Assembly: GCA_963693365.1 (NCBI GenBank)
Contig: CAVNZM010000001.1
Coordinates: forward strand, 10,752,161 to 10,816,160
Direction of reading: 5' to 3'
From: Amoebidium appalachense
Lineage: Eukaryota > Protista > Ichthyosporea
DNA length: 64,000 nucleotides
Every line of letters starts with the position of its first letter. Within the stretch, counting starts at the first letter, position 1. The notes below the pieces were generated by a model that was not told where the DNA came from, made no database searches, and saw only the letters and a list, made by a program, of their open reading frames with translations. A program made the position numbers and the translations under genes. This document shows, piece by piece, positions 21,701 through 63,826 of this stretch.

Positions 21701-24700
21701 GTTGTACAACATGTTCATGAAAGTGGACGCCACCCAGATTGAAATCAACCCCCTGGGTCAGACCAAGGAGGGCCAGGGTACGTGTGTGTGTGTGTGTGTG
21801 TGTGTGTGTGTGTGTGTGTGTGTGTGCTGAGGAAGGGGTGTGTGTGTGTGTGCTGGGGAAGAGGTGTGGGGGTGAGAGTTTGGGTGTGTGTGGGGGCGGT
21901 AGTGGTTTTGGGGGGGGGGGGGGGGGGAGGGGGATGGGTATTTGTGGGTGTGGGTGTGTGGGTGTGTGGGTGTCGTGGGTAGGGTATGGAGGGGGAAGGG
22001 GTCGGGGTGATGTTCTGCGCTATGTGGGAGTGTGTGTCGTCGAGCTGATGCGTGTGTGTATGCACGGGGGGGGGGGGGGGGTAATGCTTGCGGGGTTGCG
22101 TGTGGGGTGGGTGGGGGTGGGTGCGCGCACTCAACCAGGTGGGTTGATGGGTTGTTTGCTCCCAGTCAACCCGCACCCCGGTCTCCCCCCCCCCCCCCCC
22201 CCCCCCCCCCCCAAACAGACCACTGTATGGAGACCGCTTTACTTCCATGCAACCGGGCTTGGTTGCTCTGTGTCGTGCATCTGTAAGCACATACACATTT
22301 TTCGCTGCACTGCTTTCGTTTGCACACACATCTTCACCGTTTTGCTCACCTTGCTTGCATAAGCAACCCTGCTCGTCTTTGATCAAGACGGGTTGACCCT
22401 CCCAAGTTCAGTTGATGCTGCTGTCTGTGTTGGAGAGTCGTATATACGCGGGCTAAGGGATCGAAACTCAGACGCAATTGATGACTTGGGCCCTCCCTGA
22501 GGATGGGCTCTGCTTATGACGCATACTGTGCGCATGGCTGATGTTACATACTTGAATGTTTGCCTTTGCATGTGTCCTGCACCATGCTTCTCATCGTGTA
22601 TTCGTACTTCGTACCGTGTTCCGCATTCAACCCCCCCACCGTTGGCGACAGCTCCCTTGGAACCCATGCGGCATGTTACCCGCCGGCTTAACATAACTCG
22701 GACTGTCGGGTTGCCTTTTTTTTCAAGCCCAAAGCAATGGGTGATACCATATTTCCGGCTGACATCCGGGGGCATAGCTTTCCGTTCGAAGACGTTAAAG
22801 TTCCGCCCTAGTAAGCGTGTTACTACCCTGCGGCGTGGGTCAAATCTCATATTTTCCCCTCTGATTGCGAATTCTGCCGCCTTCGGGACTTAATTCTTTT
22901 CAGCTGGTGTAGTATGTTAGCCAGGAAAGTATCGACTTAGGTAGCGACGGGGGAGCTTCCCAGAAGCCCCGTCTCCTGAGTTCCTATCTATATTTTTCTT
23001 GCTTCTGCTTACTGCTGCAACTTTAACCCCCGGCCTTTCCTACTGCCCTTGCCTGCATAAGTAACCCTGCTCGTCTCTGATCAAGACGGGTGACCTACCC
23101 ATGTTCAAATGAAACAGTATCTGAGTTGGGTTTCGTTAACGAGGTGAATAGGTCGAAACTCGGGTACTGTGGATGACGTGGGGCCCCCCTGAGGATGGGC
23201 TCTGCTTATTATGCATACTCTTTATGTATGGTTTGCATTCTGCATCGTGTTATCCGTTGTTCTTGTGTACTTCGTACTTTATGACGCATTCAAACCCCCC
23301 CCCCCCCCCCGGTCGAGTGCGGGGATGAGTTCTGCCTAAGTTACATATTTACACGCCTGCCTTTGCATTCCATGACGTGTCCTGCACAGTGTTTCTTGTC
23401 GTGAAGTTTTGTTCCGCATTCTAAGCCCTCCCTCGGCCTGCCCCCCGAGCCCTCCCCCCCCCCCCCCCCCCCCCCCCCCCCCCCGCAGTGATCTGCTTCG
23501 ATGCGAAGATCAACTTTGACGACAATGCCGAGTTCCGCCAGCAGGACATTTTCAAGCAGAGGGACACGGCTGAGGAGGACCCCCGTGAGGTCGACGCCGG
23601 CACCCACGGCCTGAATTTCGTCGGCATGGACGGCAACATTGGCTGCATGGGTACGTAATCTTGCAAACCCCCCCCCCCCCCCCCCCCCCCCCCCCCTGGA
23701 TCACGCCCTCCCTATCTTTCTCTTTCCTTCCCCCCCTCCCCCTCCCCCCCTCAATCCTTCTTCCTTCATTCGATCTATCTTTACCCCCCTCCCCCCATCC
23801 CTTCCCTTCATTCTCACCCTCTCACCCTCTCTATCTCCCCACCCCCCCCCCCCCCTCCCCCATCCCTCCCTTTCCTTCCTCCCCCCCCCCCCCCCCCCCC
23901 CCCCCCCCCCCCTTACGGCCTTTATGCTACCACTTTTACTTGCGTTGTTGGCTCATGGTAAATTTGTTTGATCTTTTTCGAGACCGACCTATTCAATTCT
24001 TTCTGTCAGTAGCCCGTTTCTCCCAAGAAAGATCACCACCTATGTCATGCTTCACACACATGCGCAAGCACCCCACTGCACGCACACATCGAACCACATG
24101 TCCTCCTCCCCCCCCCCCCCCCCCCTCCCCCCCCCCTCCCCTCCGTCTTCACACGGCCCCTTCATGTGCATAGTTTCTGACCATACTGATTTTTCCTCCC
24201 ATGTACCCCCGTGTGTGCCCCCCCCCCCCCCCCCCCCCCCCCCACACACACACACACACACACACACCCACCCACCCACCCACCCACCCACCCACCCACA
24301 CACACACACACACACACACAGTCAACGGTGCCGGTCTTGCCATGGCTACCATGGACATCATCAAGCTTCACGGTCAGTCTCTCCCTCCCCCCCCCCCCCC
24401 CCCCCCCCCCCCCCCTTATTGTGTTGTTCGTCGTAGATGTGTACTTAATACTGTTTCAAACCCGCTTTTCAAACCCCCCTCCCCGCTTCCCCCCTCTCCT
24501 CTTCTCCACCTTCTCTCCCTCGACCCACGTGCCCACCCCCTCACCCTGTTCATGCTTGGTAGCTGGTGAATAGTTTACGTATATGGTTTGAGGAAAAAGG
24601 TAGGGTACGGGAAAGGGGAGGGGGGGGGGGGGGGGGGGGGAGCGGGGGGGGGGAGGGGGGTAGAAGGGACGTGTACACGACAACAGCGCATATACACCAA

Positions 24701-63178: not shown

Positions 63179-63826
63179 TTTGAATGCGTCAAAAAGTACG
63201 AAGTACACAAGAACAAACGGATAACACGATGCAGAATGCAAGCCATACATAAAGAGTATGCATAATAAGCAGAGCCCATCCTCAGGGGGGGCCCACGTCA
63301 TCCACAGTACCCGAGTTTCGACCTATTCACCTCGTTAACGGAACCCAACTCAGATACTGTTTCACTTGAACATGGGTAGGTCACCCGTCTTGATCAGAGA
63401 CGAGCAGGGTTGCTTATGCAGACAAGGGCAGTGGGAAAGGCCGGGGGTTAAAGTTGCAGCAGCACGCAGAAGCAAGAAAAATATAGATAGGAACTCAGAA
63501 GACGGGGCTTCTAGGAAGCTCCCCCGTCGCTACCTAAGTCGATACTTCCCTGGCCAACATACTGGCTAACATACTACACCAGCTGAAAAGAATTAAGTCC
63601 CGAAGGCCGCAGATTTCGCAATCAGAGGGGATTTGACCCACGCCGCAGGGTAGTAACACTCTTACTAGGGCGGAACTTTGACGTCTTCGAACGGAAAGCT
63701 ATGCCCCCGGATGTCAGCCGGAAATGTGGTATCACCCATTGCTTGAAGAAAGCCAAATCGATAGTCCGAGTTATGTTACGCCGGCGGGTAACATGCCGCA
63801 TGGGTTCCAAGGGAGCTGTCGCCAAC
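63179..63826 (-). mobile_element. Subfamily B, apparently full-length copy on the minus strand
   Basis: Reverse complement of 22641-23294 with the same start (gttggcgacagc). Its 3' end abuts G7 (63172-63178), which is C7 on the element strand. Confidence 0.92.

What the first reader, a model, noticed from the sequence alone, without database searches (positions are those of the whole stretch)
22215..63826. Non-coding retroposon-like family with a poly(C) tail that sits in poly-C tracts
Seen: nine clear copies in 64 kb (A: 17672, 22215, 25903, 42354, 49637; B: 22641, 47182, 52798, 63179 on minus). All share one 3' end (...acttcgtac...cgcatt(c)aa(a)) followed by a C-run, while 5' starts vary (about 105-650 bp long). 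Eight of nine begin at or within a few bases of a C-run. No TIRs and no credible ORF. Established: fixed 3' ends with variable 5' truncation mark target-primed reverse transcription, and SINE/LINE tails are normally poly(A) or short repeats. Inference: a non-autonomous retroelement whose 3' C-tail primes on the G strand of C/G homopolymers. I do not recognise a described family like this.
Basis: partly seen in the sequence, partly recalled or inferred. Interest (0 to 1): 0.85.

Follow-up and report, generated by a model that had tools for sequence, protein, structure and literature searches.

The report
Poly-C-targeting Penelope-like repeat, rearranged hammerhead
This is a very abundant short non-coding repeat that sits in runs of C inside introns of what is likely a single-celled relative of animals; it is likely a Penelope-like retroelement of a kind already known from green algae, but it carries what may be a hammerhead ribozyme with its parts in an unusual order.

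Summary
The window holds 11 young units of two related families (A, 445 bp; B, at least 680 bp) in 8 loci, plus 3 decayed copies. All share a fixed 3' end, have variable 5' ends and sit in C tracts (7 of 7 visible outer 5' ends, 8 of 8 3' ends). The 'poly(C) tail' is better read as a short templated C7 (4 of 4 short runs are exactly 7 C) plus target DNA. The kind is described: non-autonomous Chlamys-type Penelope-like elements give short, 5'-truncated, intronic insertions in (C)n in Chlamydomonas. No RT partner could be found (no genome held), so membership is inferred. Two things are new. The host is likely an ichthyosporean. A 170-nt core shared by A and B holds the three hammerhead blocks 170-200 nt from the 3' end, in the non-circular S-G-C order, with compensatory changes between the families. 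Stem II does not form in the standard way, so cleavage is unproven.

The parts
17672..17776 (+). Family A unit, 5'-truncated (105 bp), somewhat diverged
   Evidence: blastn 92.7% to the 42376 unit; C11+T before, C10 after
22215..22630 (+). Family A unit, lacks the first 28 bp; joined by C7 (22631-22637) + ACC to a B unit
22641..23294 (+). Family B unit, 5'-truncated; C16 after
   Evidence: truncation shown by loose ends
25903..26023 (+). Upstream partial A unit of a head-to-tail tandem (pLTR-like); shares a private ~13-15 nt deletion and a private A>T change with the unit downstream
   Evidence: alignment
26024..26030 (+). C7 linker (also at 22631-22637, 42369-42375 and 63172-63178 minus)
26031..26462 (+). 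Full-length A unit
42354..42368 (+). 15-bp 3' stub of an upstream A unit
42376..42820 (+). Full-length A unit (445 bp + C7)
   Evidence: same head-to-tail joint in one X19 contig and a similar loose end in 43 X1 contigs
42543..42712 (+). Structured core in A: GAGU-U block (predicted cut after 42620), GAAA at 42652, CUGAGGA at 42686
47182..47589 (+). Family B unit, 5'-truncated, in an intron of the glucosidase II alpha gene
47346..47509 (+). Structured core in B: predicted cut after 47421, GAAA at 47449, CUGAGGA at 47483
49637..50036 (+). Family A unit, lacks the first 44 bp, intronic
52798..52920 (+). Family B unit, 123 bp, 100% identical to two other copies; inside a 457-nt GT..AG intron
   Evidence: spliced contig in run X13 skips 52683-53139
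63179..64000 (-). Longest B unit; shown to about 63856, likely to the window end or beyond; C7 at its 3' end
19813..20050 (+). Decayed B-like copy; internal C7 expanded to C35
54544..54771 (+). Decayed copy ending at a C24 run, intronic
17288..17430 (+). Probable decayed 3' fragment with CTGATGA in place of CTGAGGA
   Evidence: blastn E 8e-4; weak with the covariance model (E 0.23)

Best explanation
Two related non-coding repeat families with a fixed 3' end, variable 5' truncation and head-to-tail partial tandems sit in C tracts of introns, and are likely non-autonomous Penelope-like retroelements of the Chlamys type, likely copied by an RT plus GIY-YIG partner encoded elsewhere in the genome. 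Inferred cycle: a longer-than-unit (tandem or circular) RNA is bound through the conserved 170-nt structured core; the partner nicks a poly(dC:dG) tract; reverse transcription starts at the AC-rich CAUUCAAA-C7 site, primed by the G strand, with C7 possibly pairing to it; synthesis stops early (5' truncation) or runs on through the C7 joint or jumps to another RNA (A-A, A-B, B-A tandems); the 5' end is joined to the C strand by C microhomology or 0-2 extra bases, which leaves C runs on both sides. The core keeps the three hammerhead blocks in S-G-C order and is likely hammerhead-derived; whether it still cuts is open.
For: Shown: fixed 3' ends and junctions in C tracts. Partial tandems whose two units share private changes. 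Head-to-tail and A-B/B-A joints at many 5' points in public contigs, and depth rising 5' to 3'. Element depth about 1e6 against 8.6-12.6 on the unique flanks (the tool says summed depth is no copy number; dividing by 31 for contig overlap still suggests thousands of copies, my inference). 84 contigs in X8 start at the internal C7 with poly-C before it; 16 and 17 contigs in X4 and X8 do the same. Intronic position. No coding capacity. RNA-type covariation: 8 of 11 pairs changed between A and B stay paired, against 3.0-3.8 expected (p 0.0004-0.002); 4 pairs change on both sides and several are kept as G-U. Literature: Chlamys elements target (C)n and (CA)n, form pLTRs and have non-autonomous partners with head-to-tail insertions (PMC8557442); Chlamys-9/Chlamys-N4 de novo insertions are short (median 128 bp), 5'-truncated, all intronic, in (C)n (PMC9977147). 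PLE hammerheads sit near the 3' end and often read CUGANGA+1 nt, GAA-ACUC and GAGU-H (supplement table; PMC4209133).
Against: No autonomous partner was found or could be sought (no genome held). No inverted 5'-truncated copy lies next to any unit in the window. No clear 30-40 nt PLE 'tail'. Chlamys elements were reported from green algae, streptophytes and a slime mould, not from holozoan protists. 5' truncation and microsatellite targeting also occur with LINEs (recalled). Covariation rests on two lineages, and the structure was drawn after seeing both. Folding energy of the core is unremarkable (z -1.39 and -1.04), and the A minimum-energy fold omits stem III. Rfam finds nothing at gathering thresholds; the Hammerhead_1 hit is weak (E 7.1).
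Confidence: 0.7

Rival explanations
1. A SINE-like parasite of a microsatellite-targeting LINE, with tandems made by template jumps.
For: Fixed 3' end and 5' truncation fit any target-primed element. 3 of 8 3' C tracts are followed by an A run, against 13 of 207 other tracts (p 0.015, post hoc). A weak A-box/B-box look-alike (recalled consensus) overlaps the GAGUUGG and GGUCGAAAC motifs.
Against: No tRNA or Rfam RNA head. The box-like motifs lie mid-element. Pol III-stopping T4-T5 runs lie inside both units, one about 12 nt before the B 3' end. The copies with A runs still have C tracts at their 5' ends. Partial tandems plus (C)n targeting match the Chlamys description.
Confidence: 0.14
2. A retrozyme-like element: the unit self-cleaves, circularises, and the circle is reverse-transcribed for more than one turn by a borrowed PLE RT. 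This differs from the best explanation in needing an active ribozyme and a circular RNA.
For: The 452-nt A unit repeats head to tail; 1.3-unit and 1.05-unit insertions; both units at 25903 share private changes; the joint is seen in a contig of X19, a run from the same sample as spliced run X13. This model is proposed for PLE hammerheads (PMC4209133), and animal retrozymes are argued to be PLE derivatives (bioRxiv 2026.07.22.740005).
Against: No type I hammerhead; stem II is defective in the standard reading. No long tandem arrays in the window. A-B hybrids need template jumps or nested insertion anyway. The X19 joint could come from tandem DNA copies.
Confidence: 0.11
3. A non-autonomous rolling-circle DNA element (Helitron or Replitron type), read from the other strand, with one fixed end.
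For: One fixed end, tandems and no visible target-site duplication are also seen with HUH transposons (partly recalled; PMC10288648 passages).
Against: No TC...CTRR ends (recalled rule) and no short direct terminal repeats. Variable ends fall at many positions, with microhomology or extra bases. The conserved stems accept G-U pairs, which favours RNA.
Confidence: 0.05

Closest known systems
Non-autonomous Chlamys Penelope-like elements (Chlamys-N4_cRei with Chlamys-9_cRei; MRC1) of Chlamydomonas reinhardtii
   Same: Short 5'-truncated copies, fixed 3' end, (C)n target, intronic, partial and head-to-tail tandems, no canonical hammerhead (PMC8557442; PMC9977147).
   Different: Host here is likely an ichthyosporean; partner not seen; copy number seems far higher; carries a structured core with hammerhead blocks in S-G-C order. 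No sequence comparison with Chlamys consensus sequences was run.
Type-SGC hammerhead ribozymes (HRIMA-1; PMC10085705)
   Same: Order cleavage block, GAAA block, CUGANGA block; all core nucleotides; stems I and III present.
   Different: Known SGC ribozymes are compact (about 80 nt), come from metatranscriptomes, and have stem II directly after CUGANGA. Here that stem gives 1 extra base, 2 pairs, then a G-G mismatch, and the better partner (5-6 bp, covarying) lies upstream of the whole motif.
PLE-associated type I hammerheads and animal non-LTR retrozymes
   Same: Similar block sequences, extra base after CUGANGA, G10.1-C11.1 pair, short stem I, position 170-200 nt from the 3' end, short tandem units.
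   Different: Those are in C-G-S order with a tiny stem III; this is S-G-C with a 9-13 bp stem III.
EN-minus PLEs Athena/Coprina
   Same: C-rich stretch in the RNA near a hammerhead motif, which would pair with a G-rich DNA strand (PMC8557442 passage).
   Different: Those attach to telomere overhangs; these are interstitial, in homopolymers.

Membership tests
Non-autonomous Chlamys-type PLE | Fixed 3' end, frequent 5' truncation | tested here: met
   11 of 11 young units share the 3' end; depth gradient
Non-autonomous Chlamys-type PLE | Partial tandems (pLTR) or head-to-tail insertions | tested here: met
   2 A-A tandems and 1 A-B tandem in 8 loci; joints in public contigs
Non-autonomous Chlamys-type PLE | Located in (C)n tracts | tested here: met
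   7 of 7 outer 5' ends and 8 of 8 3' ends
Non-autonomous Chlamys-type PLE | C tract present before insertion (empty allele) | tested here: inconclusive
   Contigs break at the C runs; no empty-site joint seen
Non-autonomous Chlamys-type PLE | 3' similarity to an autonomous element with N-terminal GIY-YIG, CxC motif and PLE RT | not testable with these tools
   No genome held; no RT/EN motif in the window; pattern scans gave only chance hits
Non-autonomous Chlamys-type PLE | Inverted 5'-truncated neighbour or 30-40 nt tail in some copies | tested here: inconclusive
   None among 8 loci; only 15 of 101 joints were shown
Type I (PLE/retrozyme) hammerhead | Block order C-G-S | tested here: not met
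   Only S-G-C found, in 5 of 7 core-bearing units; no Rfam hit at gathering score
Type-SGC hammerhead | Order S-G-C with CUGANGA, GAAA, U16.1-A15.1 and H17 | tested here: met
   CGAAACUC and CUGAGGAU in 7 of 7, GAGUU in 6 of 7
Type-SGC hammerhead | Stems I and III | tested here: met
   Stem III 9-13 bp with covariation; stem I only 3-4 bp (GGAG/CUCC in A, GGG/CCC in B)
Type-SGC hammerhead | Stem II formed by the strand directly after CUGANGA | tested here: not met
   0 pairs directly, 2 pairs after a 1-nt insert, then G-G; the 5-6 bp partner lies upstream
Type-SGC hammerhead | Self-cleavage at the predicted site | not testable with these tools
   Needs an in vitro assay
tRNA/5S/7SL-derived SINE | Pol III RNA-derived head, no internal terminators | tested here: not met
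   ARAGORN 0, Rfam 0, internal T4-T5 runs
Helitron / Replitron / TIR DNA transposon | Characteristic termini (TIRs, short direct terminal repeats, TC...CTRR) | tested here: not met
   Ends compared; the 5' end of B is not known

The most novel reading that the evidence does not exclude
The core is an active non-circularly permuted (S-G-C) hammerhead whose stem II is completed by a strand upstream of the motif, folding back on itself or as a dimer. It would be the first such ribozyme in a chromosomal retroelement, amplified to thousands of copies by a Chlamys-type PLE in an ichthyosporean, and it would suggest that Naiad/Chlamys elements scored as having only a 'half core' hide permuted ribozymes.
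Probability: 0.25. Interest if true: 0.8.

Novelty: new variant of a known kind. Interest (0 to 1): 0.52.

Why it matters
It would extend (C)n-targeting Penelope-like elements to unicellular relatives of animals; my paper searches for choanoflagellate or ichthyosporean plus Penelope listed no such description. The core bears on an open question: Naiad and Chlamys elements lack canonical hammerheads, yet some keep a core or a 'half core' with the halves far apart or on either side (PMC8557442 methods). Non-circularly permuted hammerheads were almost all found outside genomes of known organisms (PMC10085705). A 170-nt, two-family, covarying candidate is cheap to test by in vitro transcription. 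The family may also feed the host's unusual poly-C load (8.2% of the window lies in C or G runs of 6 or more).

Tried and rejected
Whole-genome analysis was not possible. Rfam: 0 hits at gathering scores; 6 weak hits at E up to 10, among them CPEB3 (HDV-like) in the 5' part of B, which lacks the needed P2 partner and was dropped. Pattern scans: 1 hit in viral contigs, inside a phage coding region; 16 hits in metagenome contigs, none with blastn similarity to A or B (best E 0.19); all read as chance. Empty-site test at 52798 in runs X4, X8, X14, X13: contigs break at the C runs, so no verdict; X8 is another strain (4 flank differences) and X14 does not cover the flanks. No RNA holder is on record; X13 is shown to hold spliced RNA, but element contigs there may come from introns or DNA. 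The SH2/RGS exon found no homologues. Earlier scan notes: nothing. A long poly(C) tail was rejected in favour of C7 plus target. A poly(A) tail behind the C run was considered; 3 of 8 is suggestive only. Type I, II and III hammerhead readings fail on block order. MFE z-scores give no support for structure (2 of 22 sliding windows reach z below -3 on the sense strand, both in A and outside the core centre). Dfam and Repbase are not available here, and Chlamys consensus sequences in the paper's supplement were not compared with these units.

Full report
Observation. Closer mapping gives 11 young units in 8 loci: family A at 17672, 22215, 25903+26031, 42354+42376 and 49637; family B at 22641, 47182, 52798 and 63179 (minus). 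All 11 end in CGCATT(C/T)AA(A) followed by C (one further match of that short motif, at 25119, lies in host sequence with no C run and was not counted). Three decayed relatives lie at about 17288, 19813 and 54544. All 7 visible outer 5' ends lie in or within 3 nt of a C tract, against 5.1% and 2.2% of positions on the two strands, and 8 of 8 outer 3' ends run into one. The window is very rich in such tracts (215, of which 146 on +), so the background is high, but the association is far above it. No TIRs, ORFs with Pfam hits, or RT/GIY-YIG motifs were found.

Host and location. Of 87 full-length glucosidase II alpha homologues that aligned (from the best 120 of 1869 hits), the Ichthyophonus protein matched the window's exons at 73%; the next 11 by score matched at 56-61%. 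The host is therefore likely an ichthyosporean; the genus is not determined. Copies 47182, 49637, 52798 and 54544 lie between exons of that gene, and a spliced contig removes the 457-nt GT..AG intron that holds 52798. The copies at 17288-26462 appear to lie in introns of a succinyl-CoA ligase beta gene (one exon has a Pfam hit; the rest is read from frames).

Genome-wide view. No assembly was held, so I used contigs of public runs. In X1, 22,355 contigs fell on 22215-23294; summed depth rises from 0.48 to 1.94 million along A and from 0.25 to 1.26 million along B, and in X8 from 0.09 to 0.74 and from 0.02 to 0.81 million. On the 52798 locus the element stands near 1 million while unique flanks stand at 8.6-12.6. 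The tool warns that this is no copy number; thousands of copies is my inference. Joints link A and B ends to A and B bodies at many 5' points, the A head-to-tail joint recurs, many copies start at the internal C7 behind poly-C, and loose ends point to further subfamilies. B extends 5' of 22641.

What the C run is. At all three internal joints and at the one 3' end outside a long tract the run is exactly C7 (4 of 4). Long runs occur only at outer ends, on both sides. A decayed copy shows an internal C7 grown to C35. The simplest reading is a templated C7 at the start site of reverse transcription, with long runs from the target and from later slippage. The empty-site test gave no verdict.

What it works like. 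Partial tandems, 5' truncation and (C)n targeting are the published marks of Chlamys Penelope-like elements, including non-autonomous ones with head-to-tail insertions (PMC8557442: passages, sections 9, 10, 15 and supplement rows read). De novo Chlamys-9/Chlamys-N4 insertions had a median of 128 bp, were all intronic and followed the (C)n target (PMC9977147, passages). The two units at 25903 share a private deletion and a private substitution, so they came from one template or master copy. In the only PLE studied in vitro, reverse transcription starts inside the RNA at an AC-rich stem-loop without homology to the cut DNA, and the hammerhead cuts only with protein present (PMC11167929, parts 1-2 of 4). 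That fits a fixed AC-rich 3' end on a longer RNA but leaves open whether C7 pairs with the target. Membership is not proven, because the RT partner could not be sought.

The core. A and B align only over about 170 nt (80% identity) and at the last 35 nt. The core holds GAGU-U, CGAA-ACUC and CUGAGGA-U in that order, 167-200 nt before the 3' end. Stem III (9-13 bp) and a short stem I (GGAG/CUCC in A, GGG/CCC in B) form as a hammerhead needs. My descriptor found this in 5 of 7 core-bearing units; the other two carry changes that break stem III, and at 22428 99.5% of X1 depth has the pairing base. In 3000 shuffles each, 3 (A) and 6 (B) met the descriptor with stem III of 8 or more in any block order, and 0 and 2 also had a 5-bp partner for the strand before GAAA (the descriptor was set after inspection). 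Between A and B, 8 of 11 changed pairs stay paired (p 0.0004-0.002), 4 change on both sides, and 95.5% of cells pair; this is two lineages only. The block sequences resemble PLE hammerheads in the published table, including the extra base after CUGANGA and the G10.1-C11.1 pair (PMC4209133, parts 1-2 of 4). S-G-C is a validated non-circular permutation (PMC10085705, parts 1, 3, 4, 5 of 8). Against an active ribozyme: stem II after CUGAGGAU gives two pairs and then a G-G mismatch, and that paper notes no inserts longer than 1-2 nt there. The strand before GAAA pairs better with an upstream GACCC(U)/GACCUA segment, with two compensatory changes, which would need a fold-back of the long stem or a dimer. 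Folding energies are ordinary, and Rfam gives only a weak Hammerhead_1 partial hit (E 7.1). The core may be an active odd ribozyme, a switch, or a hammerhead relic kept as the RT binding site.

Rivals. A LINE-borne SINE is weakened by the lack of a Pol III head and by internal T runs, though 3 of 8 3' tracts are followed by A runs (13 of 207 elsewhere, p 0.015). A circular-RNA retrozyme remains possible (bioRxiv 10.64898/2026.07.22.740005, part 1 of 5). HUH DNA elements fit poorly (PMC10288648 passages).

Literature reach. Nine searches listed no description of this family, of PLEs in ichthyosporeans, or of an S-G-C hammerhead in a retrotransposon; most listings were seen as titles and abstract starts only. 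A paper on a TE-rich ichthyosporean genome does not mention Penelope or SINE in its text or its two held supplement files (PMC11244446); its repeat library and figures could not be seen, and Dfam/Repbase were not available, so the family may already be listed there unclassified.

Verdict. A real, young, high-copy family; likely a non-autonomous Chlamys-type PLE (0.7); a known kind of insertion behaviour in a new host group, with an unusual hammerhead-like core (active permuted ribozyme 0.25). Interest 0.52.

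Noticed in passing
window 1-64000: 8.2% of bases lie in C or G runs of 6 or more; C tracts are 146 on + against 69 on -, and often run into (CA)n or A runs.
   Followed up: partly
window 26463-26510 and 50156-50209: Two C tracts are linked to an A run by the same AACCC; related ACCC/AACCC repeats follow the 3' ends at 42821 and 54772. 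Possibly repeated copying of the AAACCC end by the RT, or plain slippage.
   Followed up: no
window 42561-42581 and 42628-42637; 47364-47384: The core holds two near-palindromes: a hairpin with a TGATCA loop, the same in A and B, and CGTATATACG (A) or CGTTAACG (B) in the apical loop. They could serve dimer pairing.
   Followed up: no
window 42376-42404: The 5' end of the full A unit holds CTTTCAG twice behind a pyrimidine run, like 3' splice sites; sense-strand intronic copies could be exonised.
   Followed up: no
runs X4, X8, X13, X19: Loose ends after the CUGAGGA block differ from A and B, which points to at least two or three more subfamilies; one 898-nt and one 1542-nt contig end in the core and could hold a longer parent.
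   Followed up: no
window 37545-38162 +: 205-aa frame of Cys/His repeats (CPHG...C..C) with no Pfam hit.
   Followed up: partly
window 28381-30005 +: Gene with SH2 and RGS domains; no homologue among longer proteins.
   Followed up: partly
window 44200-44346, 48700-49100, 50500-50900: Intronic minisatellites of about 21-26 nt period.
   Followed up: no
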